From the NCBI GenBank assembly GCA_000200715.1, contig DP000238.1, positions 924,593-956,592 of the forward strand: DNA of 32,000 nt. The letters are read 5' to 3'. Both the position numbers and the translations under genes were made by a program. Shown here one piece after another: positions 10,101 through 23,800 of this stretch; within the stretch, counting starts at the first letter, position 1, and each line of letters starts with the position of its first letter. Under the pieces are notes generated by a model. The model had not been told where the DNA came from, ran no database searches, and saw only the letters and a program-made list of their open reading frames with translations. Source of the stretch: Cenarchaeum symbiosum A. Its GTDB lineage: Archaea > Thermoproteota > Nitrososphaeria > Nitrososphaerales > Nitrosopumilaceae.

Positions 10101-13100
10101 GTTCTCCAGGGACGGCACCACGATGCTGATAGTCGCGGTCAACACCAGCGGCGCCTTCAGCCTGGAGATACTCCAGTATGGCATGGATGCGCCATTCGAT
10201 GTGGGATCGGCCGAGCCCGAGGGCACGCTCGATACGGAGATACTGGGGGATCCGGTGGATGTGGCGGTCTCGTCAGACGGCCTGCGGGCATTTGCAATAG
10301 CCGGCGGCACCAGCACCGTGCACGGCTTCTCCCTGGCCGGCGCGTTTGACGCGGCCCGGTATCCGCCGGCAGAGGGCGCGTACGTGGGCGCAGAAGAGCA
10401 GGCGCCAACGGGCGCGGCAGTCTCCGGCGACGGGTCCATCTTTGTAGTCGGGGAATCTGGGATGATACGCAGGTATGACGCGGGCTCCGGCGGGTATGCA
10501 GAGGCGTATTCCGGCGCGGACAGAAACGCCACGGCGGCCACGGATATTGCATTCTCGGATGACGGCATGCTTGTCTTCATACTTGATGACGGCTCCGATG
10601 CGCTGTACGGATACAGGGCGGACTCGCCGTACGAGCTCGGCGGGCTGCCGCCGGCAGGCAGCCTGTATGTTGGGGATAATTCAAGCTCGCCTGCGGGGGC
10701 TGCATTCTCGGATGGCGGGGGCAGGCTCTTTGTGGCGGATGGCGCGACGGGAATGGTGCACGGGTATTCGCTTGCGGCGCCCTATGCGCTGGATGGCGCC
10801 ACATATACGGGGTCGTACGATTCTTCAGAACAGCAGGGCGCCCCCACCGGGGTGGCATTCTCGCCCGGTGGCATGGAGATGTTCATTTCAGGGGGGGAGT
10901 TTGTGCACATGTACGGGCTTGATGCGCCCTATGAGGTGGAATCGGCAGACAGTTCAGGCTCGTTCTATACGGGAAGGCATGACGGCGCCATACAGGGCGT
11001 GGACTTTTTCCCCGGCGGCTCGGCCATGGCGGTGGTCGGGGATGAGACGGACACCGTATACGTCTACGCGCTGGGCACGCACCACATCAGAGAGTGCGGT
11101 TTGGAGTATTCCTCCGGCGTGTGCATGCCTGATGACCTGCTTGCATACGGAAGGGCGGCGCCAACAGTGGCCGATTCGGCCGGGCTGGCGGCATTGTTCT
11201 TCCTGTCGGGAGGCGACGCGCCGGCGGTTCTAGATCTGCCCGGCGTGGGCGAGATCCCCATCCTGCCCATACCCGTGCCCGGCGATGACAGCCCGTCATT
11301 TGCGGAACTGCCCGGCGTGAAAGTCATGATGGGTGTAGGTGCTCCGAATGGAACGGACAGGCCGACCGTGGCAGAGGAGCACCGCCTGGTCCGGACCGTG
11401 TCGTTGTCCGGAAACGACACCCTGACAGTTGAGGAGAGGGACGACGTGGGATCCATGGCAAGGCCGAATGCAACGGATGCGCCGGCCATATCCGATCCGG
11501 TCAGGGTGGCCGTATTGTTCCATCTGGAGGGAGACGACGCGCCGGCTGTTCTAGATCTGCCCAGCGTGGGCGAGATGGCCAATCGGCCCATACCCGTGCC
11601 CGGCGATGACAGCCCGTCATTTGCGGAACTGCCCGGCGTGAAAGTCATGATGGGTGGAGATGCTCCAAATGGAACGGACAGGCCGACCGTGGCCGAGGAG
11701 CACCGCCTGGTCCGGACCGTGTCGTTGTCCGGAAACGACACCCTGACAGTTGAGGAGAGGGACGACGTGGGATCCATGGCAAGGCCGAATGCAACGGATG
11801 CGCCGGCCATATCCGATCCGGTCAGGGTGGCCGTATTGTTCCATCTGGAGGGAGACGACGCGCCGGCTGTTCTAGATGTGCCCGGCGTGGGCGAGACGGC
11901 CAATCGGCCCATACCCGTGCCCGGCGATGACAGCCCGTCATTTGCGGAACTGCCCGGCGTGAAAGTCATGATGGGTGGAGATGCTCCGAATGGAACGGAC
12001 AGGCCGACCGTGGCAGAGGAGCACCGCCTGGTCCGGACCGTGTCGTTGTCCGGAAACGACACCCTGACAGTTGAGGAGAGGGACGACGTGGGATCCATGG
12101 CAACCCCGAATGCAACGGATGCGCCGGCCATATCCGATCCGGTCAGGGTGGCCGTATTGTTCCATCTGGAGGGAGACGACGCGCCGGCTGTTCTAGATCT
12201 GCCCGGCGTGGGCGAGACGGCCAATCGGCCCATACCCGTGCCCGGCGATGACAGCCCGTCATTTGCGGAACTGCCCGGCGTGAAAGTCATGATGGGTGGA
12301 GATGCTCCAAATGGAACGGACAGGCCGACCGTGGCAGAGGAGCACCGCCTGGTCCGGACCGTGTCGTTGTCCGGAAACGACACCCCGTCAGTTGAGGAGA
12401 GGGAAGACGTGGGCGGCATGAGCCGGAATGCAGTGGATAGGCCGGCCATATCCGATCCGGCCAGGCTGTCTGCACAGTTCTTCCTGTCTGGAGACGACGC
12501 GCCGACGGTTCTAGATGTGCCCAGCGTGAGCGATCGCGCGGAGCACACTGGCAGCGGTGTGATGTCGCCGCCTGACCTGCAGGTGGTTTCCACCGTGCTG
12601 GACAGCAGGGGCGTACTGGAGATAACCTTTGACGGATTGGTGGTCGCAGAGAATATAGACTACAACCTGATTAGCATTACCGACGGGTATGCGCCAGCCG
12701 GGCGCATACTGCTGTCCCCCGGCGAGCTCACCCATTCCGGGGAGAACAGTCTGCGCTATACCCTGGGCGAGAACAAGTGGAACCTTGTGCGGAATTATGC
12801 GGATCCCCGGCTGCGGGTCGACATCGGGGCACTCGGGCCGGGCCTGCCCGATGTAGGATACCGGCTGCCGGATTCATTGTACCCGTACGAGCCGGATGTT
12901 GTATCCGCGGCCCTGCCCAACAACACCGAGGGAGCGCATCAGGGACTTGCATTCTCGAGGGACGGCACGGTGATGTTCACGGTGGGTCTGAATCTGGACA
13001 CGGTGTTCCGGTATGTGCTAGAACAACCCTACGACATATCCTCGGCAAGAATTGAAGGAAACTACAGCGTGGGCGACCGGGAGGTCAACCCGCGCGGACT

Positions 13101-16100
13101 GGCGTTCTCCCCGGACGGGCTCAAGATGTTCGTCGTGGGAAACGATGCGGTGCACCAGTATGCACTGGGCTCGCAGTTTGGCTTCAGCCCCGCCCCGTCG
13201 TTCGAGCATGACTTTAGTGTGGCCGAGGACGGCCTGGTCACGGGAATAGACTTTGGGAATAACGGCACCAGGATGTACCTATCGGGCGCAAACAACAGCG
13301 CCATCCAGCAGTACGACCTCTCTACACCGTACGATATAGAGGCGCAGCCCGTCCATGCGGGGAACTTTAGCACCGCCGGCCAGTATGACTCGCCCCGCGG
13401 GGTAGTAGTCTCCGGCGACGGCCGCATCATGCTGGTACTGGGCCAGCCGGACGACAAGGTGTTCATGTACGGGATGGACGAGCCGCACGATATATCCACC
13501 GCAGGGTATGTGGGCTCCCACGAGATCACAAACTCGGAGCGCAACCCGGAGGGAATAGCGGCGTCGGACGACGGAAGGCTGCTCTTTGTCACGGGCACCG
13601 TGACCAACAGTGTGTTCAGGTACAATCTCGGGGCGCCGTACGATGCGGCCCGGGACGGGGCGGGGGCCGGGCCCACCCTGACCAATACCATCAGGGCCCC
13701 TACGGGGATTGTATTTTCCCCTGACGGCCTGCAGTTGTTCCTCTCCTCCCACGGTGCAGATCTTGTACAATCGTACAACCTGACAGCCCCCTATGGCGTG
13801 GCGACGGCCACGCCTGCGGACACTTATAATCTTCCCGTGGACCCCGGCCGCAATCGTCCATTTGATGTGGAATTTTCCACGGATGGCCTCCTGATGTTTA
13901 CCACCGGGCGTAACCCCCTAAGACTGTATTCGTTTACGCTGGATGCGCCGTACAACATATTGTCGGCCGTGGAGAATAGCAGGTACGACATAACGATAGC
14001 GCCGTTGAATACTCAGACGGGCGTGATATTCAACCCCAATGGGACCATCATGCTGCTTGCAGCGGGAACCCGCGGCGGCGGCATCATACAGGAATACAAC
14101 CTCCCCAGCCCGTACAACATATCCGGCGCCGTGGCGGCCCCGTTCAGCATAACGGACGGGCTGGTCCCGCTGGGGATTACATACTCGTCGGACGGGCACA
14201 GGCTCTTCGTCATGGATGATGCCGAGGTGGTGCACAGGTACGACCTTCTAACGCCGTATACGCTGAGGGATGCCCTGTTTGTGGACTCTGGTGAATTCAA
14301 AGACGGTGCCCAGCCCAACGACTTGGCGTTCTCCGGTGACGGCGGAAAGATGTTCATAGCCTGGGGCAACGATAACAGGATAGAGACGTACAACCTGACA
14401 GCCCCCTACGACATAACCTCGTCTGCCAGCCCCGTGTCCCTTTCAGCGGACACCGGCTCCCCCACCCCGAGCGACGTCTCCGTGAGCGCAGACGGCAGGA
14501 CGGTGCTTGTATTCAACAATGTACGGGACGCGGTCATTGGGCACAGCCTACGCCAGCCGTACGACCTGTCCACACCCGCATCATCGGTCCAATCGGCAGA
14601 GGCCGACAACACCAATGTAAACGCGATGGAGTTCTCACCCAACGGGACGCTGATGTTCCTGTCGGGATGGAACGAGACAAGTCCCATAGTACAAGGACGA
14701 ACTGTCTATACGTACAACCTGAGCGCCCCGTTTGACGTATCCACGTTCCAGCGCATAGGCGAGTTTCACACCCGGGATGCGGTAAATGCGCTGACGGGAG
14801 ACGCCAGTATAAGCAGCCCCTCGGCAATGAGGTTCTCGGCTGACGGGACGGATCTGTATCTAATAGACGAAATCGATCAGTTGATACATCACTTTAGCCT
14901 GAGCAGCCCGTACCTGCTTGACAATACGACTGCCTATGTGGAAGCCCTTGATGTCAATCCGCCGGAGAGCAACCCCTCCGGGCTTGAACTGTCGGCCGAC
15001 GGCACAAGGCTGTTCATCACGGGGGCCGGCAGTGACCGCATACGCCAGTACGACATGGATATCGCGTACAACCTCTCCACCGCCGTGCATTCGGAATCGA
15101 TCAACGCGGTCGGGCTCGACAGCCAGGCCCGTGGGCTTGCATTCTCAGAGGACGGCTCTAGATTGTTCTTTGTCGGGGATGATACGGATCGGATATACCT
15201 GCTTGATCTGGCGGCCCCCGAGGTCATACGTGTACTGCCCGGCATGTTAGATGATGTGATATCTGTGACGCACAACGTAACGGCGGTGGACAGGCCCTCT
15301 ATCTCCGATGGCCGCCCAGACTCCACGGTTAAACCCATATCCGCCGGAGACGCCCCGTCATTTGTGGATGCGCCCGGCGTGGACGCCATGATAGGTAGGG
15401 ATGTGATGGATGCGCCGGCCGTATCCGATCCGGCCAGGCTGGCTGTATCGTTCCACCTGACGGGAGACGACGCGCCGGCGGTTCTAGATGTGCCCGGCGT
15501 GGGCGAGACGGCCAATCGGCCCATACCCGTGCCCGGCGATGACAGCCCGTCATTTGCGGAACTGCCCGGCGTGAAAGTCGTGATGGATGTAGATGCTCCA
15601 AATGGAACGGACAGGCCGACCGTGGCCGAGGAGCACCGCCTGGTCCGGACCGTGTCGTTGTCCGGAAACGACACCCTGACAGTTGAGGAGAGGGAAGACG
15701 TGGGCGGCATGAGCCGGAATGCAGTGGATAGGCCGGTCATATCCGATCCGGTCAGGGTGGCCGTATTGTTCCATCTGGAGGGAGACGACGCGCCGGCGGT
15801 TCTAGATGTGCCCGGCGTGGGCGAGATGGCCAACCAGTCCATACCCAGGCCCGCCGAGGATAGACCGTCATTCATGGATCTATCCGGTGTGGACTTTGCG
15901 GCGGTCAGGAATGCGGCAGACGCGCCGGCCGTGTCCGACGAGCCCAATCTGGCCCGGAGCACATCCATATCCGGAAATGATTCGCCATCATTCGAGGATA
16001 TGCCCGGCGTGGGCGGCATGGTAGCCCCGAATGCAGCGGATGCGCCGGCCATATCCGATCCGGCCAGGGTGGCCGTATTGTTCCATCTGGAGGGAGACGA

Positions 16101-18441
16101 CGCGCCGGCGGTTGATGATCTGCCCAGCGTGGGCGAGACGGCCAATCGGCCCATACCCGTGCCCGGCGATGACAGCCCGTCATTTGCGGAACTGCCCGGC
16201 GTGAAAGTCATGATGGGTGTAGGTGCTCCGAATGGAACGGACAGGCCGACCGTGGCAGAGGAGCACCGCCTGGTCCGGACCGTGTCGTTGTCCGGAAACG
16301 ACACCCTGACAGTTGAGGAGAGGGACGACGTGGGATCCATGGCAAGGCCGAATGCAACGGATGCGCCGGCCATATCCGATCCGGCCAGGGTGGCTGTATT
16401 GTTCCATCTGGAGGGAGACGACGCGCCGGCGGTTGATGATCTGCCCAGCGTGGGCGAGACGGCCAATCGGCCCATACCCGTGCCCGGCGATGACAGCCCG
16501 TCATTTGCGGAACTGCCCGGCGTGAAAGTCATGATGGGTGGAGATGCTCCGAATGGAACGGACAGGCCGACCGTGGCAGAGGAGCACCGCCTGGTCCGGA
16601 CCGTGTCGTTGTCCGGAAACGACACCCTGACAGTTGAGGAGAGGGACGACGTGGGATCCATGGCAACCCCGAATGCAACGGATGCGCCGGCCATATCCGA
16701 TCCGGTCAGGGTGGCCGTATTGTTCCATCTGGAGGGAGACGACGCGCCGGCGGTTCTAGATGCGCCCGGCGTGGGCGAGATCCCCGTCCTACCCATACCC
16801 CTGCCCGGCGGAGATAGCCCGTCATTCATGGAACTGCCCGGCGCGAACGTTATGACGGGCGGGGATACGGTAAACAGGAGTGCAGCGGATGCGCCGACCG
16901 TGGCCGAAGACCAACGCGTGGCCCGGAGCACATCCATATCCGAAGATGATTCCCCGACATTTGAGGAGATGCCCGGCGTGGGCGGCATGACTAGCCGGGA
17001 TGCGGCGGATATGCCTGCCGTCTCCGATCCGGTCAGGGTGGCCGTATTGTTCTTCCTGTCGGGAGATGACGCACCGGCGGTTCTAGACGTGCCCCGCGTG
17101 GACAGCAGCATCGGGGACATGCCCGGCGCGGGCCATGGCGATGACACACTGGCCGTGGCTGATCATGCCAGCCTCGGGGTATACAGGATGGCGTCCGACG
17201 CGCCGGTCATTGAAGATATAATGGATACAATAGTCAATGGCACGTTCCGGCTCACCCCGAGAGATATTCCGGTCGTGGCTGATCCGGCCAGGCTGGCTGC
17301 ACAGTTCTTCCTGTCGGGAGATGACGCACCTACTGTTCTAGATGTGCCCGGCGTGAATAGCGGCGTCGAGGATGCACCAACCGTGTCTGATCACGCCAGC
17401 ATCGGGTTCTCCCGGATGGCATCCGACGAGCCGGCCGTGGCAGATTCCGCCCAGCCCGGCGACCTGATGTTCCGCGATACTCCAGACGTCGAAGATTCGG
17501 CGGCGCTCGGCCTCTCCATTACTGTCTCCGACGAGCCCGCCGTGGCCGACCGCACGCCGGGTATAGAACCGGCAGACAGTCCGGCAGTCTCGGATTCGGC
17601 CGTGCATGCAGTCATGCCGGGTCCGCCGGCAGAACCCGAGCCCCGGCCCGCGCCGAGCCCCGCACCCCGGTCCGGCGGGGGCGGCGGAGGCGGCAGCCGC
17701 ACCGGAGTCACCTTCGAGGGCGGCGCATCCTCGGGGCACAGCGTATCGTTTAGCTTCATCTCAAGCGCGGCAGACGCAATGCACGGCCTGTCGGACATAC
17801 GCCTGGCACCCGGCGCGGCCCTTACGGTGGCGCCCCAGATGGTCCCCGACAACCTAAACGTCTTCGAGATGGAGCTGGCCTTTGGCACGGACGACGGCGC
17901 GGCTGCAAACGTCCATTACAGCAGGATAGGCAACTTCCTCGGGATTACCTGCGACGGGGACGCGTATACATCCGGGATGCTGCACGCGTGCGACATCTCG
18001 TCCGCCATATCCGAGGATTCCGTCACAGTCCACGGGGAGGGCCCTGCCTTTGAGGGGATAACCGTGCCCTTTGAGGGCGACTTTGAGGGGACCGTCAGCA
18101 TACTCCTCCGGGACAGCCGCGGCATAATCTTGGCCGCGCATGAATCCGACGTGTACGGCATACAGACAGCCCTGCCCGCGGAGCCGGAGCCCCCCGCCCC
18201 CGCCGAGATCGCCCCCGCCGTGGATGATGCCGCCCCGGAGGAGCCCCGCCGCGCAGAGCCCGATCCGGAGCCTGTGGAGCGCGCCCCGGAGCCGGAGCCT
18301 GAGCCCAGCGCGGATCCGGTGCGCATTGCGGGGCCCGAGCCTGCAGACCCCGAGCCCGAGGATGAGGGGGTCATAGGGATGATAGTCGACTTTATCAGGT
18401 CCGTCCTGGGCCGGGTCTGGCCTGCGGCCGGCACCCCATGA
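1..18441 (+). CDS. Giant extracellular repeat protein, 5'-partial (6,146 codons visible). It contains beta-propeller blade arrays, Cys-hairpin/Ig-like spacers, two acidic 107-aa tandem-repeat arrays and a Pro/Glu-rich C-terminus.
   Basis: Frame 1 is open from nt 1 to the TGA at 18439-18441. Nt 1-48 encode AAYADSAESGSGEPGG with no stop and resemble the inter-blade loops seen later (e.g. ATYAGSRTVSGQEGEPAG), so the ATG at 49 is internal. There are 73 copies of the blade motif G-[VIL]-[AD]-[FIL]-S-x-D-G-x-x-[ML]-[FLIV]-V ... [HRQ]-x-Y-x-L-x-x-P-[YF]-D-[IV]-x-x-A, 7 spaced Cys hairpins and in-frame 321-bp repeats. An 18.4-kb open frame with periodic conservation cannot arise by chance. Confidence 0.92.
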   Translation, partial: AAYADSAESGSGEPGGMIFSADGTSMYLLDADDGGVREYSISPPYGFDSVSSVMLHEIEGAANLTGMTFSPDGTAIFISGDAGIFRYELPAEYSPAGAVLSGRFTPAAPAGAPADIEISADGLHLVVAGADGSIHGYALDRQSELGARGVPRALNLGGGSVPAGVAFSGNGSIAYVADSGSGEVRAYGLASPYDIQGAASIFSLSVPAVPAGVALSPDGQRMLVPEPGGILQYVLGTPYDLSSAVLGVSFVPDEEPDPRGVAFTPDGLRMFVSGPEFIHRYGLAEPYNVDDPAYAGSDASPIPSTEGVAFSDHGYRMFVAGGGAVSAYSLDDPFAPSTAIHDGSFDLGDGADPRGVAFSADGSRMFVPGGGNEFVLQYAVGTHRIDVCPDGMSVFEGGCTMTGPAGGPRLVSAAMDPRTGELEMFFDRAMDPGLSTGIVQIRDGVSPAGGTTLAGSFSAGPRPEVLRITLENDSRAEAAEFADPRLYFGNDALQGLDGGFFPAAFDAPRTEFTGVLDVSTWDTTVRGVTFSHDGLQVFTVSHGDTIVRFVLSEPYDINTASHARTYGGNIQDEAGSGIRFSSDGMIMFTSDWGKDAIHRYDLVSPYELDGRVRGGSFNVRSQTGTPFGLDFSADGSIMFVISSNPGTLFRYDLGIPYDVRSAVLDSRLDISGELTAGHGVDFAPDGMRFIAAGFEFEGPDATSTDVNQYDLSEPYNITSAVHAGAYIVPAAQGGFTNDIALSEDGTVFLLADPQFDAIQQFRLAEPFDLLPRAYHASANITAHAPEPEDIVIYGNGSRMLILDGDAGGVYEYGIAEPHDVRTMSYTGVFQNVTRDGGSPSGLALSPDGTLMLVSGSPQGHVSAYALGTAHDISSAAYSSSLNVSDMAPDPTGVDISDDGSWLFVSRERGSRGDVHRYHLAEPFEIGTALYLDTLDTDKDGRPSEAALGTDGLYLLATNRDLGAVAHYTMDVPFEIDGGVLEYVLDVSPEEAAPAGLDVADDGSSMHVAGAGGIHQYLFDGRPLEYCSEGQSIYNGACAGGLPEAPSITSAAAMLQAGGGTIEVRFDRQVRADTARPSIINITDGGAAAGFALNPGSAAGTGNVLSFAIDADGAAELAGQAGPVVRFGAGSLLADNGAAFPPVFGLSPLMYEGAVDTSAQAASVGGAAFGAGGSRLFVAGEDGMIHRYDLPVPFWPAGATHAESHDFGAGGLAGVALSDNGRRIFVISGADGRIDQYNLGTAFDLGGPVHMGSFDTGANASGIYLAPGGANMLVSNSSGSVHRYALGALFDVTSAVPAGSADTGAIEPTGVAFSADGLNMIVSDRSGMLHSYALGVGFDLGSLVRGGTFSSAVQSPSPADVAFSPDGTTMIISERTGSIHAYSLNSHPVRICAAPGMLSGGACAPPEMPRITDAALAGGVVVLEFDRTIDVSTVNISRMHVADGLNLSRSVDLHGGILETASDLDTLRIRHSGLLGAEFGDASIHFDAGALEDSMGMPFPPAFGLPLPAHVETLSGVVGERPTGMAFDPGGMRMYVTGRDPGAVRMYALPGPFDIAGAVEGDAFSVEEDGVPTGIAFSPNGSRMFLSGNTGDSIYGYNLSIPYDVTTSVHSETFSVAGQDASPTGVAFSDDGMHMMVSGDAGDSVYAYVLAEPYDITGAVHAGTLDISGQETGPNDIAIGPLGMRVFVTGGAGGAVHMYELAEQYSLDGALYSATLAVGGEDSAPVGSAFSGHGLDIFVIGNQNDGVYGYDLAAPYDLSQAGTDLYTPDASGDINPTGAVLSPDGAHLFITDSTEVIDLRHDLAVPNYIASAGPAGTLPTGTAGITGADISADGTMIFVMNNSDDTVYRYSMDAPYDVSAAVEDMTLDVSGQERTPTGLDVSSDGTWIFVTGITSDSVHSYRMGTPFDIGGAAYNASLAVQDSAPQGVAVSDDGLFIMVAGNENDRLYRYAMSSPFDLNTASYAGSFYTGMQDVTPRDVSFAAGGTSVLVPGSSNDSVHKYPLNVHRLEVCQEGERFTNGACSVRAAGSPSMVSASIDGSALLSMLFDQEIDAGTVDASRIHVRDGGGFDGGIALSGLNATISGGAVEFVLGTADAAEVLGYENPRLHFDSGALSSSGGGSFPRPYGLPLPAYRESVPAPGDGTVPGGLAFSPDGMRMYTLGTGNGTVEEYSLSGPYDSSGATLQGSLYIGEREESPTGLALGDDGSALFVVGTGSGSVHMYDLDSAYSVESATYAGSRTVSGQEGEPAGVAFSSNGTLMFVFGEQTGQVHRYGLEQPYRPGGSGYLGVFDPGDLPGIPQDIIFSADGSGMSLLYSGEVPGVISDAVHHYRLGAPYETAGAAYAGNYSVTRWDDEPRGAAYAADGSSMLVLGAEGIHRYDLAAPFDPVRTISSGRTDISSDVQYPIDAAFSADGTRMFALDLSDPHIHVYELGTPFDARTASRTMLLNLTEERNPKGIEFSRDGTQMMILGREELHRYSLDEPFETEPVHVSTQDDFIFIVNRFSGMDFSSDGLSLFHTSLASLQVQAFSLGAPYDIRSYAHLPSLNIGELGSQPVALAFSESGDRMFVLEAGSDGLHEYSLGIPYNLDTAERAGTHVAGVLDASIGGISFSKDGQKLYILSDVPGTIDQHVIGTRQLNTCSADQAAFEGTCRRELAVHGSDEPAVSENPARHIGDESAVADSAVAEITFHQAPVFNGAFLDMGGRILELAFDEEIDVARPERMSITDSKDYAQGTSLAGASVGGEGGIVRLGLTAEQMAGIASYQSPALRLGELAVIGTGGGAFPGPYDIADAAYVGSADVAGDASHPTGVAFAPNGSRFFVADPTNVRSRVVQYGWDGSNIASAAPEGSAVLTGPENSRNIELGGISLDPDGGRLLATDIEGSARVYSYSIEGAEIGALEYDGGSLNTNNRASFPTDAVAGFGGHRLFVSNYVDSRIHVYNLDRPHDIGAGSAAYNGSVQTDAGGLNATGVFVSPNGAHMIVTLQDGLDGGRILRYNMSTPFDAYGIIQDGALDISGETVAPQGAAFTPDGLEMIVVDSAVGMLRHYSLGIRNITVCEEGMIVDSGMCTVERADATSRPGVSDRASIREMAPTVLSVSLYADPGVLEIAFDAAINSSLTDPSKMHIRDGSAPSGGTSLAGGGVVGSTPENAAGISLTQAQLSEISGYENPTLHLAPGALQSIGGHAYPPGGGLPFPSEYASIDLLEYDNSAAAIAFSEDGTRMFMIGGEFETVFAFDLSRPFMIDTARPAGSFHAGDDVRFVEDMEFARGGGSVFVSDSSTDLVHAYALGAPYDVTTAVREQTLDTGADGLDARGTAFSRDGRTLFVLDGDETAARYATSSPYYIEGAEYEGDVPVDGARFVTNMEFSRDGTTMLIVAVNTSGAFSLEILQYGMDAPFDVGSAEPEGTLDTEILGDPVDVAVSSDGLRAFAIAGGTSTVHGFSLAGAFDAARYPPAEGAYVGAEEQAPTGAAVSGDGSIFVVGESGMIRRYDAGSGGYAEAYSGADRNATAATDIAFSDDGMLVFILDDGSDALYGYRADSPYELGGLPPAGSLYVGDNSSSPAGAAFSDGGGRLFVADGATGMVHGYSLAAPYALDGATYTGSYDSSEQQGAPTGVAFSPGGMEMFISGGEFVHMYGLDAPYEVESADSSGSFYTGRHDGAIQGVDFFPGGSAMAVVGDETDTVYVYALGTHHIRECGLEYSSGVCMPDDLLAYGRAAPTVADSAGLAALFFLSGGDAPAVLDLPGVGEIPILPIPVPGDDSPSFAELPGVKVMMGVGAPNGTDRPTVAEEHRLVRTVSLSGNDTLTVEERDDVGSMARPNATDAPAISDPVRVAVLFHLEGDDAPAVLDLPSVGEMANRPIPVPGDDSPSFAELPGVKVMMGGDAPNGTDRPTVAEEHRLVRTVSLSGNDTLTVEERDDVGSMARPNATDAPAISDPVRVAVLFHLEGDDAPAVLDVPGVGETANRPIPVPGDDSPSFAELPGVKVMMGGDAPNGTDRPTVAEEHRLVRTVSLSGNDTLTVEERDDVGSMATPNATDAPAISDPVRVAVLFHLEGDDAPAVLDLPGVGETANRPIPVPGDDSPSFAELPGVKVMMGGDAPNGTDRPTVAEEHRLVRTVSLSGNDTPSVEEREDVGGMSRNAVDRPAISDPARLSAQFFLSGDDAPTVLDVPSVSDRAEHTGSGVMSPPDLQVVSTVLDSRGVLEITFDGLVVAENIDYNLISITDGYAPAGRILLSPGELTHSGENSLRYTLGENKWNLVRNYADPRLRVDIGALGPGLPDVGYRLPDSLYPYEPDVVSAALPNNTEGAHQGLAFSRDGTVMFTVGLNLDTVFRYVLEQPYDISSARIEGNYSVGDREVNPRGLAFSPDGLKMFVVGNDAVHQYALGSQFGFSPAPSFEHDFSVAEDGLVTGIDFGNNGTRMYLSGANNSAIQQYDLSTPYDIEAQPVHAGNFSTAGQYDSPRGVVVSGDGRIMLVLGQPDDKVFMYGMDEPHDISTAGYVGSHEITNSERNPEGIAASDDGRLLFVTGTVTNSVFRYNLGAPYDAARDGAGAGPTLTNTIRAPTGIVFSPDGLQLFLSSHGADLVQSYNLTAPYGVATATPADTYNLPVDPGRNRPFDVEFSTDGLLMFTTGRNPLRLYSFTLDAPYNILSAVENSRYDITIAPLNTQTGVIFNPNGTIMLLAAGTRGGGIIQEYNLPSPYNISGAVAAPFSITDGLVPLGITYSSDGHRLFVMDDAEVVHRYDLLTPYTLRDALFVDSGEFKDGAQPNDLAFSGDGGKMFIAWGNDNRIETYNLTAPYDITSSASPVSLSADTGSPTPSDVSVSADGRTVLVFNNVRDAVIGHSLRQPYDLSTPASSVQSAEADNTNVNAMEFSPNGTLMFLSGWNETSPIVQGRTVYTYNLSAPFDVSTFQRIGEFHTRDAVNALTGDASISSPSAMRFSADGTDLYLIDEIDQLIHHFSLSSPYLLDNTTAYVEALDVNPPESNPSGLELSADGTRLFITGAGSDRIRQYDMDIAYNLSTAVHSESINAVGLDSQARGLAFSEDGSRLFFVGDDTDRIYLLDLAAPEVIRVLPGMLDDVISVTHNVTAVDRPSISDGRPDSTVKPISAGDAPSFVDAPGVDAMIGRDVMDAPAVSDPARLAVSFHLTGDDAPAVLDVPGVGETANRPIPVPGDDSPSFAELPGVKVVMDVDAPNGTDRPTVAEEHRLVRTVSLSGNDTLTVEEREDVGGMSRNAVDRPVISDPVRVAVLFHLEGDDAPAVLDVPGVGEMANQSIPRPAEDRPSFMDLSGVDFAAVRNAADAPAVSDEPNLARSTSISGNDSPSFEDMPGVGGMVAPNAADAPAISDPARVAVLFHLEGDDAPAVDDLPSVGETANRPIPVPGDDSPSFAELPGVKVMMGVGAPNGTDRPTVAEEHRLVRTVSLSGNDTLTVEERDDVGSMARPNATDAPAISDPARVAVLFHLEGDDAPAVDDLPSVGETANRPIPVPGDDSPSFAELPGVKVMMGGDAPNGTDRPTVAEEHRLVRTVSLSGNDTLTVEERDDVGSMATPNATDAPAISDPVRVAVLFHLEGDDAPAVLDAPGVGEIPVLPIPLPGGDSPSFMELPGANVMTGGDTVNRSAADAPTVAEDQRVARSTSISEDDSPTFEEMPGVGGMTSRDAADMPAVSDPVRVAVLFFLSGDDAPAVLDVPRVDSSIGDMPGAGHGDDTLAVADHASLGVYRMASDAPVIEDIMDTIVNGTFRLTPRDIPVVADPARLAAQFFLSGDDAPTVLDVPGVNSGVEDAPTVSDHASIGFSRMASDEPAVADSAQPGDLMFRDTPDVEDSAALGLSITVSDEPAVADRTPGIEPADSPAVSDSAVHAVMPGPPAEPEPRPAPSPAPRSGGGGGGGSRTGVTFEGGASSGHSVSFSFISSAADAMHGLSDIRLAPGAALTVAPQMVPDNLNVFEMELAFGTDDGAAANVHYSRIGNFLGITCDGDAYTSGMLHACDISSAISEDSVTVHGEGPAFEGITVPFEGDFEGTVSILLRDSRGIILAAHESDVYGIQTALPAEPEPPAPAEIAPAVDDAAPEEPRRAEPDPEPVERAPEPEPEPSADPVRIAGPEPADPEPEDEGVIGMIVDFIRSVLGRVWPAAGTP
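1540..3066 (+). repeat. Propeller module P1 (10 blades).
   Basis: I counted ten S-x-D-G-type blade cores by eye, from GVTFSHDG to GLDVADDG. The module ends at the hairpin LEYC..GAC (3076-3111). Confidence 0.75.
3457..4160 (+). repeat. Propeller module P2 (5 blades).
   Basis: The blade cores are AAFGAGG, VALSDNG, IYLAPGG, VAFSADG and VAFSPDG. The module ends at the hairpin VRIC..GAC (4171-4206). Confidence 0.75.
4531..6018 (+). repeat. Propeller module P3 (10 blades).
   Basis: There are ten blade cores, from GMAFDPGG to DVSFAAGG. The module ends at the hairpin LEVC..GAC (6028-6063). Confidence 0.75.
6400..7908 (+). repeat. Propeller module P4 (10 blades).
   Basis: There are ten blade cores, from GLAFSPDG to GISFSKDG. 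The module ends at the hairpin LNTC..GTC (7918-7953). Confidence 0.75.
8362..9162 (+). repeat. Propeller module P5 (5 blades).
   Basis: The blade cores are VAFAPNG, ISLDPDG, VAGFGGH, VFVSPNG and AAFTPDG. The module ends at the hairpin ITVC..GMC (9172-9207). Confidence 0.7.
9595..11085 (+). repeat. Propeller module P6 (10 blades).
   Basis: There are ten blade cores, from AIAFSEDG to GVDFFPGG. The module ends at the shorter hairpin IREC..GVC (11095-11124, C-x8-C). Confidence 0.75.
11191..12540 (+). repeat. Tandem-repeat array A: about 4.2 copies of a 321-bp (107-aa) in-frame unit.
   Basis: Unit starts (codon V/A of A-[AV]-LF[FH]L) fall at 11191, 11512, 11833 and 12154, and a partial fifth unit starts at 12475. 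Units 2 and 3 differ at only 4 of 107 aa. The unit sequence is AVLFHLEGDDAPAVLDLPSVGEMANRPIPVPGDDSPSFAELPGVKVMMGGDAPNGTDRPTVAEEHRLVRTVSLSGNDTLTVEERDDVGSMARPNATDAPAISDPVRV. Confidence 0.95.
12910..15215 (+). repeat. Propeller module P7 (15 blades), with no terminal Cys hairpin.
   Basis: There are fifteen blade cores, from GLAFSRDG to GLAFSEDG. An Ig-like spacer (~12560-12880) precedes the module, and array B follows it directly. Confidence 0.75.
15290..17600 (+). repeat. Tandem-repeat array B: 6-7 units of 312-327 bp of the same family as array A, decaying at both ends.
   Basis: Unit starts fall at 15445, 15763, 16075, 16396, 16717 and 17044, and a degenerate unit starts near 17299. The units at 16075 and 16396 are near-identical to array A units, down to the GVG versus GGD and ARPNAT versus ATPNAT variants. 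The units at 15763 and 16717 are a divergent subtype (..ARSTSIS..DSPSFE.MPGVGGM..). Confidence 0.9.
17610..18441 (+). other. C-terminal region of the giant protein: a Pro-rich linker, a Gly7 run, a domain of about 150 aa with a C-x12-C pair, a Pro/Glu-rich tail and an 18-aa amphipathic end.
   Basis: The Pro-rich linker and Gly run read PGPPAEPEPRPAPSPAPRSGGGGGGGS. The Cys pair is ITC..(x12)..C at nt 17950-17991. The tail reads ALPAEPEPPAPAE...PEPEPEPSADP...PEPEDE and the protein ends GVIGMIVDFIRSVLGRVWPAAGTP*. Confidence 0.7.
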
Positions 18442-20545: not shown

Positions 20546-21118
20546 TCAGGCAGAATCCGCGGGGCCCTTTCCCCATCTAGGGTACAGGTCGTGCTCTATG
20601 CCGAACTGGTCGAGGCACTTGCCCACGCCGTGATCTACCATGTCGGATACGGAGCCCGGGCGGGTATAGAACTCGGCCATTGGCGGCAGTATCACCACTC
20701 CCAGCCGGGCAAGCTTGAGCATGTTCTCGAGGTGTATCGCGGAGAGCGGCGATTCTCTTGCCATCAGGACCAGTTTGCGCGATTCCTTGATGGTCACACC
20801 TGCAGCCCTGGACAAAAGAGTCTCGTCATATCCGTTTGCTATGCTGGAGAGCGTCTTCATGCTGCAGGGGGCGATGATCATCCCGCCGGTCCTGTGTGTG
20901 CCGCTGGACACGCTGGCTGCCATGTTGTGCGCGCCAGATACCGTGCCCGCAAGTGATGCGACCTGCTCGGCCGTATAGGATGTCTCCATGGGTATGCACT
21001 TTGCGCCCCATTCGCTCATTATCAGGTGGGTGTGTATTCCAAGCTCCCGGAGCACCTCTAGCATGCGTATCCCGTAGATGACGCCGGTGCTGCCGGATAT
21101 CCCTATTACCAGTTCCAC
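20546..21118 (-). CDS. ubiX: Flavin prenyltransferase UbiX/Pad1 family (prFMN synthase).
   Basis: The motifs ELVIGISGSTG.IYG.R.LE, MIIAPCSMKTLSSIANGY..L..RAA.V.LKE.RKLVL..RE.PL and HLENML.L...G..I.PP match UbiX. The start is ambiguous. GTG at 21118 gives a canonical N-terminus (M-ELVIGISG) and has a TATA-like CTAAAATA (21140-21147, minus strand) about 25 nt upstream, whereas the track start is GTG at 21187. Confidence 0.85.
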   Translation of the reverse strand: MELVIGISGSTGVIYGIRMLEVLRELGIHTHLIMSEWGAKCIPMETSYTAEQVASLAGTVSGAHNMAASVSSGTHRTGGMIIAPCSMKTLSSIANGYDETLLSRAAGVTIKESRKLVLMARESPLSAIHLENMLKLARLGVVILPPMAEFYTRPGSVSDMVDHGVGKCLDQFGIEHDLYPRWGKGPADSA

Positions 21119-21655
21119 GGCCTGCGTTATGATGGCCCGTATTTTAGCCGTTTGCGCCCCCGTGTATCTAGTGTCCGCATCACACACGGGTTTGGCGGCC
21201 TAGGACCAGGCTCTTCTAAATAATCCTGATCTCTAAAATAATTTGCCAAGCGGTTTATTCAACGCCAGCAGGCCAATCTCCCAAATCTCACAAGTTTCAT
21301 CCTCCCGGCGGGCCGCTGGCCAAGCCTAACTGTGCCACATGCGCAGGGGTTTTCGGGCAGGTGGTTCAAACCAGCAAATTTCCCAGATTCCCCCTTTCGG
21401 AGGCCGGCCTTTTGCCTGCCATGCATGTCGCATTTACCCAATCCCCCCTTCAGTGAACCGACCCACTGCACTTGGTCCGCGTGCAGTTTTCATGGCCAAA
21501 CAGTATGTTTACGCATCCAGTGTCCCGGGGCAAGCATGCCGCATTTCTCGGAGAATGAATGTCCCACCAGGTAGTTTTTCTCGCAAATGCTTCTTGCGCC
21601 TGTCCTCCATCAACCTAATGAGGGGGCAAACACTCATGCAAAACACATCAGTACC

Positions 21656-21665
21656 TTTTTAAATA
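21656..21665 (+). promoter_or_regulatory. TATA-like box (TTTTTAAATA) about 24 nt upstream of the ATG at 21685.
   Basis: It marks the left edge of the low-GC islet. Confidence 0.5.
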
Positions 21666-21684
21666 CCTCTGGTCATTTTCTATC

Positions 21685-22239
21685 ATGGATTATAAAAAAA
21701 TAAATGCTCAGGACGCTGTTCTTTTAATCGTACATGCCAACAACGATGAACTGCGTGGTAGAACGATCCTCCAAAAGCTGGCATATTTTTGGACGCTTTC
21801 CATTTCTCCGATTATCAATGTTAGCTTCGAGTCCCATTACTATGGCCCGTATAGCGCTGAAATACGCCATGCACTGGACATAACTGTAGCAAAGTCGCTG
21901 ATGGATGAAAGCATCAGATCCGAGGAGACTTATAACAGATATTGTTATAAAATTACTGAAGACTCCAAAGATCTTGTCCGGACTATTGCAGAGGAGTATA
22001 AAGACGAATTCAAACAAATTAGTCACATTATAGCCACCTGTAAAGAATTTGAGTGCCTTCAATACAAAGAACTTTCACACGCAGTAAAGGCCTACTATCT
22101 ATATGACAAAATGGCCGAAAAAGAAAAAACTAAATCCGCAGAAGTCATGGTTGGTAAAGCACGTTCGTTTGGCTGGAGTGTTGAACAGAAAAAAATTCAA
22201 AACGGAATCAAACTCCTCGAAAAACTTGAGCTTATCTGA
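21685..22239 (+). CDS. Panacea/DUF4065-like (SocA-type antitoxin domain) protein encoded in a low-GC islet.
   Basis: The segment RTILQKLAYFW...(x18)...FESHYYGPYSAEIRHAL matches my recall of the Panacea signature (K-L-Q-K-L-x-Y, then F-x-A-W-x-x-G-P-x-x-x-x-[VIL]-Y). Two 60-nt lines I counted inside the gene are 37-38% GC, versus 67% for a flanking line. The family call is from memory and has not been searched. Confidence 0.6.
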   Translation: MDYKKINAQDAVLLIVHANNDELRGRTILQKLAYFWTLSISPIINVSFESHYYGPYSAEIRHALDITVAKSLMDESIRSEETYNRYCYKITEDSKDLVRTIAEEYKDEFKQISHIIATCKEFECLQYKELSHAVKAYYLYDKMAEKEKTKSAEVMVGKARSFGWSVEQKKIQNGIKLLEKLELI

Positions 22240-22254
22240 AAACGATTGTTACGG

Positions 22255-22259
22255 TTTTT
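22255..22259 (+). terminator. Oligo-T (T5) 16 nt after the stop of the Panacea-like gene.
   Basis: Archaeal termination commonly uses short T-runs. This run is short, so confidence is low. Confidence 0.3.
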
Positions 22260-22370
22260 ACAGCAAGAGACTGAGATATATGCGATGATAATGTGCAGAT
22301 CCTTCGGCCCGGGGCCGTCAAATCCGTGCGTGGTGTGAATATCCACCCCGTGCAGCGGGGGCCCAGGTAC

Positions 22371-22514
22371 CTACCGCCCGTCCGGTCCGGGCCCGTCGCC
22401 GGGGGGGATCTCCTTCGCCTCGCGCCTCCTCTTGAGCCACAGGCTGATGCACCCCGCCGCCATTGCCGTAAGCAGTATGATGCCCGTGATCTGCAGCTCT
22501 GCGTGGTAGAACAA
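22371..22514 (-). CDS. Possible small membrane peptide (47 aa from TTG, or 30 aa from the ATG at 22463). It is speculative.
   Basis: The translation is LFYHAELQITGIILLTAMAAGCISLWLKRRREAKEIPPGDGPGPDGR*, which is one clean TM helix followed by KRRR (positive-inside). It falls below the 60-aa track cutoff and I saw no obvious TATA box. Confidence 0.2.
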   Translation of the reverse strand: MFYHAELQITGIILLTAMAAGCISLWLKRRREAKEIPPGDGPGPDGR

Positions 22515-22680
22515 CCGTATCTCGTATCAGGGGCGAATAAATTCCTTGCCGGATGGGGAGGGCGCCAATGGCTGCCGGCGCACCCCCTGCGGGCCTTGCA
22601 GGGCGTCAGTCAAGCCGGGGGCGGGCGTGCTCTGGGCGGCATTTGGACCCACTTCTGCACAAAGGACAGGGGTTGGCTTT

Positions 22681-22688
22681 AAAAAAAA
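22681..22688 (-). terminator. T8 run on the minus strand, 24 nt downstream of a short minus-strand ORF fragment that stops at 22712.
   Basis: A8 on the + strand equals T8 on the minus strand. It may terminate a decayed gene or an ncRNA lying in 22.7-23.1 kb. Confidence 0.3.
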
Positions 22689-23146: not shown

Positions 23147-23800
23147 ATGATCGGGAGAACGTATGTGGCAGGAGCAGGCCTGGCGGCCGTGCTGCTCGCA
23201 ATGGCGTTTACCCCCGCAGGCGCGCTGTCCTCTCCCGCTGAGAGCGGGATCCAGTTCTATGGGATGGCGGAGCTGGTACACAGGGATGCCGGCGGCGACG
23301 TGCTGGCCTCACAGACCGTCCACAACAGGCTCGTGGACACCGGCGAGATATTCATACTAGATACCATATTCAATACCGATACCGCCATAACACCGGACAG
23401 CCAGAGGATCGACACGATCTGCCTCACCAGTACACAGGTGGACGATCCCCCTGAAGATGCCCTAGCAAGCTCCTATGAGGCAACCCTCGCCGGTTCCGGC
23501 GGAGACCCGTGCAAGTCTGTCACTGAGGTCATTCTACCAGGAGCCAGCGATCCACTCTACGGCGCTGCCGTCATAGGCCCCCTCACATGGCAGGCAGGAC
23601 TAGACCTAGGGACAACCCCGGACCAGACCATCGAAGGGGTGCTCGTATGCATCAAGAATAACCCAGATGGCCCCACCAATGATAATTGTGCAGACGCGGG
23701 AGATCTCTTTGCAGCAGTGGATGCAGGGCCCTTCACACCCACAGGCTCCGAGACGGTCGATATAACCTACATATTCAACATGTCATCACCCGACACCTGA
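23147..23800 (+). CDS. Secreted hypothetical protein (217 aa) with an N-terminal signal peptide and 4 Cys.
   Basis: MIGRTYVAGAGLAAVLLAMAFTPAGA is a signal-like n-h-c region. The mature part is T/D/G-rich with Cys at ..TICLT.., ..DPCKS.., ..LVCIK.. and ..DNCAD... I recognise no family. Confidence 0.7.
   Translation: MIGRTYVAGAGLAAVLLAMAFTPAGALSSPAESGIQFYGMAELVHRDAGGDVLASQTVHNRLVDTGEIFILDTIFNTDTAITPDSQRIDTICLTSTQVDDPPEDALASSYEATLAGSGGDPCKSVTEVILPGASDPLYGAAVIGPLTWQAGLDLGTTPDQTIEGVLVCIKNNPDGPTNDNCADAGDLFAAVDAGPFTPTGSETVDITYIFNMSSPDT

What the first reader, a model, noticed from the sequence alone, without database searches (positions are those of the whole stretch)
21656..22290. A ~640-bp low-GC islet carries a lone Panacea/DUF4065-like (antitoxin-type) gene
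The 184-aa ORF is strikingly AT-rich. I counted 37-38% GC in two 60-nt lines, against 67% in a flanking line. It uses AT-rich codons, has its own strong TATA-like box and is followed by a T5 run. The N-terminal half matches the Panacea domain as I recall it (..ILQKLAYFW.. then ..FESHYYGPYSAEI..). Panacea antitoxins normally sit in two-gene operons with very diverse toxins, yet here no co-oriented partner ORF of 60 aa or more is adjacent. Several explanations are possible. It could be an orphan antitoxin (anti-addiction), a fused or novel single-gene system, or a pair with an unannotated small toxin. It could also be a non-TA use of the domain in archaea. The compositional contrast argues for horizontal acquisition.
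Basis: partly seen in the sequence, partly recalled or inferred. Interest (0 to 1): 0.65.

Follow-up and report, generated by a model that had tools for sequence, protein, structure and literature searches.

The report
Partnerless antitoxin-like gene, one of eleven
This small AT-rich archaeal gene resembles the toxin-blocking half of the DarG antitoxin; its relatives elsewhere almost always sit beside a nucleotide-degrading HD enzyme, but this sponge symbiont has lost that enzyme gene and kept eleven diverged copies of the small gene.

Summary
A 184-aa ORF lies at 21685-22239 (+) with GC 39% and GC3 0.39; the genome's long-ORF median GC3 is 0.70. It has a TATA-like box 24 nt upstream, a T5 run downstream and no credible partner ORF.

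"Panacea" is only a distant resemblance: PF13274 scores 19.6 bits against a cut-off of 25.7, and only 2 of 72 family members hit it. The real match, by sequence and predicted fold, is the C-terminal, DarT-binding domain of DarG (PDB 7yk3, TM 0.65).

The protein belongs to a widespread family of about 180 aa. In 71 of 79 loci from other genomes the family gene directly adjoins a SAMHD1-like HD phosphohydrolase gene. That pair is listed, untested, in the 2022 Panacea dataset.

The gene is not alone in its genome (apparently Cenarchaeum symbiosum). There are 11 paralogues, 7 of them in tandem, and none has an HD partner or an HD remnant. They form one clade (bootstrap 100) nested among HD-linked relatives and are under purifying selection. 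Same-genus genomes lack both the insert carrying the target and the array.

Best reading: an orphaned, expanded antidote-type gene family. Its function is inferred, not tested.

The parts
21656..21665 (+). TATA-like box TTTTTAAATA, centred about 24 nt before the ATG (own promoter; leaderless or short-leader mRNA inferred)
   Evidence: Read. Similar TTTAAA/CATAAAT boxes lie 25-30 nt before the ATG of the other paralogues.
21685..22239 (+). 184-aa gene for a stand-alone DarG-C-terminal-domain-like protein (peripheral Panacea, called 'YwgA-like' in earlier scan notes): N-terminal winged-helix-like half plus C-terminal helical bundle
   Evidence: ORF. PADLOC DarG 9.1e-11 for aa 7-179 against positions 162-326 of 329; NCBIfam DarG 4.1e-8. 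AF2 pLDDT 95.8. Foldseek 7yk3 B/D TM 0.65/0.64. 589 representative homologues. Keeps the family motifs GRTxLQKLxYF, HYYGPYS, LSxAxK and GW.
22255..22259 (+). T5 run 16 nt after the stop codon, a plausible archaeal oligo-T terminator
   Evidence: Read.
22279..22339 (.). Solo copy of a dispersed repeat of about 60-80 nt. In other copies it abuts fragments of IS66-like transposase genes. Mobile-DNA debris at the right edge of the islet.
   Evidence: Five other copies at 76-87% identity. Neighbouring ORF fragments carry CWAHILR and FLRYEDVEPTNNAA motifs. Only the repeat itself is shared with the window.
21188..22370 (.). Segment of about 1.15-1.2 kb that is absent from the same-genus genome G001, where UbiX and the small TM gene are only tens of bases apart. 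It holds a 470-bp stretch with no credible gene, the target gene and the repeat.
   Evidence: L113: UbiX, small TM gene and PurP lie within about 300 bp of intergenic DNA. G071 and G052 show the same UbiX to small-gene adjacency.
20546..21187 (-). Left flank: UbiX-family flavin prenyltransferase (housekeeping, GC3 0.71)
   Evidence: NCBIfam TIGR00421 7.6e-71; conserved in relatives.
22371..22514 (-). Right flank: conserved 47-aa membrane-protein gene (GC3 0.90)
   Evidence: 78% DNA identity to G001, G071 and G052 at the syntenic place; GC3.

Best explanation
SHOWN:
- The gene encodes an intact, stand-alone member of a widespread protein family of about 180 aa. Its sequence and predicted fold match the C-terminal domain of the antitoxin DarG, the part that binds and blocks the toxin DarT.
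- In other archaea and bacteria this family gene directly adjoins, often with overlapping stop and start codons, a SAMHD1-like HD phosphohydrolase gene (Pfam HD + HD_assoc_2).
- That pair is mobile. It is patchily distributed, lies next to an integrase on one viral contig, and its gene order differs between archaea and bacteria.
- In this genome the partner-type HD gene is absent. The small gene exists as 11 diverged paralogues that descend from one ancestor, 7 in a tandem array and 4 dispersed. Each has its own promoter-like box.
- The target is a dispersed duplicate and the sister of array copy C1:1995983. It lies in an insert of about 1.2 kb between ubiX and a small conserved gene, bordered by a repeat associated with insertion sequences.

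INFERRED:
- In the canonical pair, the small protein binds the HD enzyme and holds its (d)NTP-degrading activity in check, as an antidote in a toxin-antitoxin or defence module.
- The orphan copies still work as protein-binding inhibitors acting in trans. Their target could be HD-type enzymes brought in by viruses or mobile elements (anti-addiction or immunity), or the cell's own housekeeping HD dNTPase (C1:1544003-1545223).
For: Identity:
- PADLOC DarG 9.1e-11 over the full length; NCBIfam DarG 4.1e-8.
- Family profile against PDB: 7yk3_B at 5.4e-6.
- AF2 pLDDT 95.8; Foldseek 7yk3 TM 0.65/0.64 over the full length.

Pairing:
- 71 of 79 loci have a co-oriented HD ORF of about 420-500 aa within -28 to +13 nt or so. 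Archaea have family then HD; bacteria have HD then family.
- The partner is HD + HD_assoc_2 with the H..HD..D motifs intact.
- One viral contig carries integrase, HD and family gene in a row.
- The pair is listed as predicted toxin|antitoxin cluster pT33/T34, untested, in the Kurata 2022 dataset.

Toxin-antitoxin-like asymmetry:
- In 151 Nitrosopumilaceae genomes every intact partner-type HD gene has an adjacent family gene.
- Intact family genes are often found beside decayed HD genes (47-52 aa remnants, frameshifts, one interrupted HD) or with none at all.

This genome:
- 11 copies, with no HD remnant within 2 kb of any copy.
- The only HD gene is the housekeeping orthologue. It shares 56-66% full-length identity with genes in all relatives tested, including genomes that lack the family.
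- The 11 copies form one clade, UFBoot 100 / SH-aLRT 97, nested among HD-linked Nitrosopumilaceae copies. The target's sister is copy 1995983, with 100/100 support.
- dN is 0.31 with dS saturated; other pairs give dN/dS of about 0.2-0.4; family motifs are retained.
- Both the target site and the array site are empty in same-genus genomes.
Against: - No experiment exists for any member of this family or for the pair. Binding and inhibition of HD is inferred from the DarG analogy and from gene-neighbourhood logic.
- No complex could be modelled here, because the structure tool takes single chains only.
- With no cognate HD in this genome, the orphans' target is unknown.
- The N-terminal half has a PadR-like winged-helix fold, and several paralogues (not the target) have a conserved upstream palindrome. 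Either could indicate a DNA-binding role instead.
- The low GC of old paralogues is not explained by simple duplication within the genome.
Confidence: 0.55

Rival explanations
1. The orphan copies have been converted into transcription regulators. The PadR-like winged-helix half binds DNA, for example the TTGAC-N5-GTCAA palindrome upstream of several paralogues, and the proteins no longer act on an HD enzyme. In the canonical operon the small protein might even be only the regulator of the HD gene.
For: - After DarG, Foldseek hits are PadR/VanR-type regulators for the N-terminal half.
- The profile weakly hits a MarR-family protein.
- 4 of the 10 genome-wide matches to the relaxed palindrome lie 55-72 nt upstream of family copies.
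Against: - The palindrome is absent upstream of the target and of HD-linked relatives.
- The putative recognition helix and wing carry a net charge of -1 each, and the family's median pI is about 6.1, which is not typical of DNA-binding winged-helix proteins.
- The closest full-length structural match is a protein-binding domain.
- Overlapping stop and start codons and strict adjacency fit a stoichiometric protein complex.
- A dedicated regulator would be expected to disappear along with its target gene.
Confidence: 0.2
2. The copies are functionless leftovers of a decayed toxin-antitoxin or defence module, multiplied by recombination or IS activity and on their way to being lost.
For: - The HD partner is gone.
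- One copy (C1:1080253) has lost its C-terminal half, and two others have diverged motifs.
- IS debris lies next to the target.
Against: - Nine or ten of the 11 copies are intact ORFs, each with its own TATA-like box.
- Family-invariant residues are retained.
- dS is saturated while dN is 0.3-0.45, giving dN/dS of about 0.2-0.4, which implies long purifying selection.
- Orphan copies also persist in other Nitrosopumilaceae.
Confidence: 0.1
3. One reading: a classical Panacea antitoxin paired with an unannotated small toxin nearby, or a fused single-gene toxin-antitoxin.
For: Panacea antitoxins pair with many toxins, some of them small (Kurata et al. 2022, PMC8832971). Short ORFs of 30-61 aa do exist around the gene.
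Against: - No small ORF is conserved next to any of the 11 paralogues.
- The adjacent 107-aa ORF has no coding signature and no Pfam hit.
- The 184 aa are fully accounted for by the DarG-C-terminal-domain-like fold, leaving no extra domain.
- Pfam Panacea is below threshold.
Confidence: 0.05

Closest known systems
C-terminal domain of DarG (DarTG toxin-antitoxin and anti-phage system; PDB 7yk3; Deep et al. 2023, Structure 31:780, doi 10.1016/j.str.2023.04.008, cited via the reference list of PMC11825919)
   Same: Same fold over the whole length (TM 0.65). Shared QKLxYF...YGPYS motif. Profile similarity is 9e-11. In DarG this domain binds and inhibits the cognate toxin directly.
   Different: No macrodomain and no DarT. 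The family's partner is an HD phosphohydrolase, not an ADP-ribosyltransferase. Here there is no partner at all.
Panacea / DUF4065 (PF13274) antitoxins, PanA (Kurata et al. 2022, PMC8832971), including their untested predicted cluster pT33/T34 'HD domain-containing protein (YdhJ) + PanA'
   Same: Small antitoxin-type protein in two-gene operons. Weak similarity to PF13274. The HD + PanA pair in the paper's dataset (toxin|antitoxin order, -4 overlap) has the same architecture as the bacterial members found here.
   Different: The target and 70 of 72 family members fall below Pfam's Panacea threshold. This family has essentially one partner type rather than hyperpromiscuous pairing. The copies here have no partner.
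Orphan antitoxins and antitoxin mimics acting in trans, for example phage-encoded DarG-like or NADAR enzymes that neutralise DarT (PMC11825919, PMC11481870)
   Same: Antidote-type genes that exist without the toxin gene and can act against a toxin encoded elsewhere.
   Different: Those are carried by phages and their function has been tested. Here the orphans are chromosomal, expanded to 11 copies in an archaeal symbiont, and untested.
SAMHD1 / EF1143-type dNTP triphosphohydrolases and the single-gene anti-phage dGTPase (Tal et al., bioRxiv 10.1101/2021.04.26.441389)
   Same: The family's usual partner has the HD + HD_assoc_2 architecture and the catalytic H..HD..D motifs. PADLOC dGTPase matches the N-terminal part at about 1e-13.
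   Different: It is far below the curated cut-offs for dGTPase equivalogs. It comes with a dedicated small partner. It is absent from this genome apart from the housekeeping orthologue.

Membership tests
Pfam PF13274 SocA_Panacea (DUF4065) | Score at or above the Pfam gathering threshold (25.7 bits) | tested here: not met
   19.6 bits, E 0.0018, aa 41-107 only. Only 2 of 72 family members match at E<=0.01.
Pfam PF13274 SocA_Panacea (DUF4065) | Encoded in a two-gene operon with a toxin gene | tested here: not met
   No credible adjacent ORF at the target or at any of the 11 copies. Relatives elsewhere do pair with an HD gene.
Pfam PF13274 SocA_Panacea (DUF4065) | Neutralises its cognate toxin by direct binding | not testable with these tools
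   Needs co-expression and pull-down experiments.
DarG (DarTG antitoxin) | C-terminal toxin-binding domain (sequence and fold) | tested here: met
   PADLOC DarG 9.1e-11, aa 7-179 against positions 162-326 of 329. NCBIfam NF048014 at 4.1e-8. Foldseek 7yk3 B/D TM 0.65/0.64.
DarG (DarTG antitoxin) | N-terminal macrodomain (ADP-ribosyl glycohydrolase) | tested here: not met
   The 184-aa protein aligns only to the C-terminal part of the DarG models. NCBIfam score is 32.9 against a cut-off of 250.
DarG (DarTG antitoxin) | Adjacent DarT toxin gene | tested here: not met
   The flanks hold UbiX, a 47-aa TM gene and no credible ORF. The family's conserved neighbour is an HD gene, not DarT.
HD phosphohydrolase + DarG-CTD-like two-gene module (Kurata 2022 cluster pT33/T34; 'YwgA-like' in earlier scan notes) | Small protein belongs to the 180-aa family (full-length homology) | tested here: met
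   Full-length phmmer hits down to 1e-25. The target nests within the Nitrosopumilaceae clade of HD-linked genes.
HD phosphohydrolase + DarG-CTD-like two-gene module (Kurata 2022 cluster pT33/T34; 'YwgA-like' in earlier scan notes) | Directly adjacent, co-oriented SAMHD1-like HD gene | tested here: not met
   No HD gene or remnant within 2 kb of any of the 11 copies. The genome's only HD gene is the housekeeping orthologue at 1.544 Mb.
LmuC / MC2 (Lamassu, ABC-3C middle component 2) | Significant match to PF20288 or the PADLOC LmuC models, with LmuA/LmuB neighbours | tested here: not met
   PF20288 scores 16.5 bits against 26.9. LmuC models give E 1e-4 to 6e-4 over aa 60-135 only. There is no SMC-like neighbour.
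PadR-type winged-helix transcription regulators | PadR fold together with DNA-binding features | tested here: inconclusive
   The N-terminal half superposes on PadR proteins (target-normalised TM about 0.6, E 0.02-0.1). Pfam PadR hits 1 of 72 members. The recognition helix and wing are slightly acidic.

The most novel reading that the evidence does not exclude
After losing the HD enzyme, this sponge symbiont kept and diversified the antidote gene into a repertoire of 11 trans-acting inhibitors. The repertoire would work as an 'antidote library' that disarms SAMHD1-like nucleotide-depleting enzymes delivered by viruses or mobile elements. Alternatively, it would tune the cell's own housekeeping dNTPase. 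Either way it would be an expanded, partner-independent use of a toxin-binding domain, not described so far for DarG-type or Panacea-type proteins.
Probability: 0.2. Interest if true: 0.75.

Novelty: new variant of a known kind. Interest (0 to 1): 0.5.

Why it matters
The DarG C-terminal domain has been treated as an appendage of one toxin-antitoxin system. Here a free-standing relative is shown to be the near-obligate neighbour of SAMHD1-like HD enzymes across archaea and bacteria. In one lineage it outlived that enzyme and multiplied.

If the small protein is a dedicated inhibitor of a nucleotide-depleting enzyme, the pair would be a protein-gated version of dNTP-depletion immunity. The orphan expansion would then be a natural experiment on what antidotes do once the poison is gone: anti-addiction, immunity against incoming toxins, or control of the housekeeping dNTPase.

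The idea can be tested in E. coli laboratory strains with genes from cultured relatives such as Methanoculleus palmolei or Moorella mulderi.

It also corrects an annotation habit. These proteins are not caught by Pfam Panacea or by current defence-system models.

Tried and rejected
- No tRNA genes and no Rfam families in the window, so no attachment-site or RNA explanation.
- Flanking direct and inverted repeats around the islet: only chance-level short matches.
- The search for related loci with the broad alignment A1 failed because it had no conserved 7-10 column stretch. A tighter alignment, A2, worked.
- HD remnants next to the 11 copies: none, even with the --max setting at E<=10.
- Apparent fusions (family matches inside open frames of 426-572 aa in relatives) are open-frame artefacts of 65-70% GC DNA. 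They are ordinary family-then-HD pairs. One row in the second tree (L109) was mis-framed by me and should be ignored.
- The apparently partnerless HD genes of about 450 aa turned out to be the housekeeping orthologue of another genus.
- Conserved small ORFs in the array spacers or around the target: none.
- A different partner at the dispersed copies: none. One copy lies near a divergently oriented low-GC 231-aa membrane ORF with only a weak DUF2254 hit.
- Phage records gave no hit. Plasmids gave one partial hit. Viral contigs gave one locus, which carries the HD pair. The viral structure library matched only the winged-helix half.
- The upstream palindrome is not conserved in relatives and is absent at the target, so it cannot decide between the explanations.
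- Literature searches for the HD plus small-partner pair found nothing beyond the dataset entry.

Full report
**1. The observation**

The ORF is at 21685-22239 (+) and encodes 184 aa. Its GC is 0.39 and its GC3 is 0.39. Neighbouring genes (TatC, UbiX, PurP) have GC3 of 0.71-0.83. The median GC3 of this genome's long ORFs is 0.70 and the 1st percentile is 0.39. Only 1.8% of 555-bp windows genome-wide are at or below 40% GC.

A TTTTTAAATA box lies at 21656-21665, about 24 nt before the ATG. A T5 run lies at 22255-22259.

Two co-oriented ORFs of 60 aa or more do adjoin the gene: 21339-21662 (107 aa) and 22293-22682 (129 aa). Neither looks coding. The first has GC3 0.48, no Pfam hit and no relatives. 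The second is antisense to a conserved 47-aa membrane-protein gene at 22371-22514 (-) with GC3 0.90.

There are no tRNA genes and no Rfam families in the window.

**2. What the protein is**

Pfam's Panacea model (PF13274) matches only weakly, with E 0.0018 and 19.6 bits against a gathering score of 25.7. Of 72 aligned family members, only 2 touch it at E<=0.01.

The DarG antitoxin models match far better, but only through their C-terminal part:
- PADLOC DarG gives 9.1e-11, with aa 7-179 aligned to positions 162-326 of 329.
- NCBIfam NF048014 gives 4.1e-8.
- A family profile finds PDB 7yk3_B, the DarG C-terminal domain in the DarT-DarG complex, at 5.4e-6 through the shared QKLxYF...YGPYS stretch.

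An AlphaFold2 model built on the family alignment is very confident, with pLDDT 95.8 and pTM 0.91. Its best PDB matches are 7yk3 chains D and B, with TM 0.65/0.64 over the whole length. The next matches are PadR/VanR winged-helix regulators, which cover only the N-terminal half.

So the protein is a free-standing relative of the toxin-binding domain of DarG. The N-terminal half is winged-helix-like and the C-terminal half is a helical bundle. It has no macrodomain.

According to Deep et al. 2023, the DarG C-terminal domain keeps DarT inhibited by direct binding. I took this citation from the reference list of PMC11825919.

**3. The family and its usual partner**

An exhaustive phmmer search found 589 representative proteins at E<=1e-3. 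Nearly all are 175-200 aa and match over the full length.

Seventy-nine loci were fetched from GTDB species genomes. They span Nitrosopumilaceae, Methanomicrobiales, Methanoperedens, Thermoplasmata and many bacterial phyla, including the sponge-associated Poribacteria.

In 71 of the 79 loci the family gene directly adjoins a co-oriented ORF of 420-500 aa. Gaps run from about -28 to +13 nt and are often ATGA overlaps. The order is family then HD in archaea and HD then family in bacteria.

The partner carries Pfam HD (PF01966) and HD_assoc_2 (PF19276). It keeps the H..HD..D motifs, and only its N-terminus resembles dGTPase models. It is therefore a SAMHD1/EF1143-like phosphohydrolase.

The only viral contig found carries integrase, HD and family gene in a row.

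Supplementary dataset 2 of the Panacea paper lists 'HD domain-containing protein (YdhJ) + PanA' as predicted cluster pT33/T34, in T|A order with a -4 overlap, marked as not tested. I found no other literature on the pair.

Earlier notes of this scan describe the same pair in other genomes. I treated them as leads. I verified the dataset entry and re-derived the pairing independently.

**4. An asymmetry typical of toxin-antitoxin pairs**

I compared a family-centred search and an HD-centred search across 151 Nitrosopumilaceae genomes.

Every intact partner-type HD gene has a family gene next to it. The apparently partnerless HD genes of about 450 aa are the housekeeping orthologue of another genus.

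In contrast, intact family genes are repeatedly found beside decayed HD genes. Examples are remnants of 47-52 aa, frameshifts, a truncated HD and an HD interrupted by about 1.7 kb. Others have no HD at all.

Loss of the enzyme gene first and survival of the small gene is what is expected if HD is the harmful component and the small protein is its antidote. This is inference, not proof.

**5. The situation in this genome**

The window belongs to a single 2,045,086-bp contig with 57.4% GC.

It holds 11 family copies:
- the target;
- seven in a head-to-tail array at C1:1992080-1997334;
- three more at 1080253, 1303174 and 2013141.

None has an HD gene or an HD remnant within 2 kb. None has any other credible partner.

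The genome's single HD gene (C1:1544003-1545223, GC 63%) is the housekeeping orthologue. It shares 56-66% full-length identity with genes in all 11 relatives tested, including genomes that lack the family altogether. Partner-type HD genes are a separate paralogue group.

In trees, the 11 copies form one clade (SH-aLRT 95 in a 102-row tree; UFBoot 100 / SH-aLRT 97 in a careful 52-row tree). The clade nests among Nitrosopumilaceae copies that are HD-linked. The target is sister to array copy 1995983, with 56% identity and 100/100 support.

No closer homologue exists in the 15-billion-protein collection.

Between the target and its sister, dN is 0.31 and synonymous sites are saturated. Other pairs give dN/dS of about 0.2-0.4.

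The target keeps the family's invariant motifs. Copy 1080253 has lost its C-terminal half.

Each copy has its own TATA-like box 25-30 nt before the ATG.

**6. Both sites are insertions**

In the same-genus genome G001, UbiX, the 47-aa gene and PurP lie within about 300 bp of intergenic DNA. Here, about 1.2 kb (21188-22370, with the target) and a further 1.3 kb (with orf217) have been inserted.

At the other site, HMG-CoA reductase and HisG are about 120 bp apart in G001. Here they are 6.06 kb apart, with the array in between.

Directly after the target, at 22279-22339, lies a solo copy of a dispersed repeat of 60-80 nt. Elsewhere in the genome this repeat abuts IS66-like transposase fragments.

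The target therefore arrived at this site secondarily. The phylogeny suggests it arrived as a copy from within the lineage's own paralogue pool, not as a fresh import from a distant donor.

**7. What remains unexplained**

All paralogues have GC3 below the genome median (0.35-0.61), and the dispersed singletons are the lowest, even though the duplications are old.

Free-living relatives have about 33% GC, and high GC is a derived trait of sponge symbionts (PMC7848895). The copies may therefore cycle through an unsampled low-GC mobile pool, or something may be holding them AT-rich. I could not decide between these.

A TTGAC-N5-GTCAA palindrome lies 55-72 nt upstream of four or five paralogues. 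Four of the 10 genome-wide matches to the relaxed pattern are at those positions. It is absent at the target and in relatives.

**8. Mechanism and rivals**

Best-supported reading (confidence about 0.55 for the whole chain): the family is the antidote or inhibitor half of a mobile HD-enzyme module. This lineage lost the enzyme gene and expanded the antidote gene. The orphan proteins still act by binding a protein, either incoming HD-type enzymes or the housekeeping dNTPase.

The steps that are shown are identity, pairing, orphan status, single origin, purifying selection and insertion. The steps that are inferred are binding and inhibition of HD and the present role of the orphans.

Rivals:
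- Conversion to a transcription regulator (about 0.2). The PadR-like half and the palindrome favour it. The acidic recognition helix and wing, and the absence of the palindrome at the target, count against it.
- Functionless relics (about 0.1). Selection and intact motifs contradict it.
- A hidden small toxin or a fused system (about 0.05). No conserved small ORF and no spare domain were found.

**9. Verdict**

The gene is not a Pfam Panacea member and not a DarG. It belongs to the DarG-C-terminal-domain-like family whose normal partner is a SAMHD1-like HD enzyme. Here it is one of eleven partnerless copies.

The two-gene module is already on record as an untested prediction. The HD-less, monophyletic expansion under selection is the new element, so I class it as a new variant of a known kind, of moderate interest.

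The decisive tests are experimental.

Noticed in passing
own genome C1:1992080-1997334 (outside the window): Tandem array of seven diverged paralogues of the target (27-56% identity). Each has its own TATA-like box. Spacers are 80-265 bp with no conserved small ORF. The array is inserted between HMG-CoA reductase and hisG, which are adjacent in a same-genus genome.
   Followed up: yes
own genome, 55-72 nt upstream of copies at C1:1303174, 1992080, 1994320, 1995184, 1995983: Conserved motif GATTGATTTTGnnTTGAC-N5-GTCAA (a palindrome). Four of the 10 genome-wide matches to the relaxed pattern lie upstream of family copies. It is absent upstream of the target and of HD-linked relatives. The protein that binds it is unknown.
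   Followed up: partly
window 22279-22339: Dispersed repeat of about 60-80 nt, with five other copies in the genome (76-87% identity). Some copies abut fragments of IS66-like transposase genes (CWAHILR and FLRYEDVEPTNNAA motifs). In the window only the repeat itself is present.
   Followed up: partly
window 23147-23800: 217-aa ORF (GC3 0.65, no Pfam or NCBIfam hit). Its first 250 bp or so recur at many places in the genome (70-81% identity), so it belongs to a paralogous family. It lies in a second insertion of about 1.3 kb that the same-genus genome G001 lacks.
   Followed up: partly
window 1-18441: One open reading frame of more than 6,100 aa fills the first 18.4 kb of the window. Earlier scan notes describe it as a giant surface-protein gene.
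   Followed up: no
window 21188-21655: A stretch of about 470 bp between ubiX and the TATA box has no credible gene, only Pro/Arg-rich overlapping ORFs with no coding GC3 signature. It is part of the insert absent from G001 and shows no similarity to the spacers of the paralogue array or to IS interiors.
   Followed up: partly
own genome C1:2011552-2012247 (-): A 231-aa multi-pass membrane ORF with very low GC (GC3 0.28) and a weak DUF2254 hit (E 0.0012). It is divergently oriented, about 900 bp upstream of family copy 2013141, inside a larger low-GC patch.
   Followed up: partly
L023 / L089 (Nitrosopumilaceae genome G065, C1:1301471-1305003): A partner-type HD gene is split into an N-terminal piece (187 aa) and a C-terminal piece (about 320 aa) by about 1.5-1.7 kb of inserted DNA. 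The adjacent family gene is intact.
   Followed up: partly
L108 (IMG/VR contig IMGVR_UViG_3300036987_000345), 1377-4498: A tyrosine-recombinase-like integrase, then an HD gene (460 aa), then the family gene (184 aa, ATGA overlap), next to phage structural-like genes on the opposite strand. The pair appears to be prophage cargo.
   Followed up: partly
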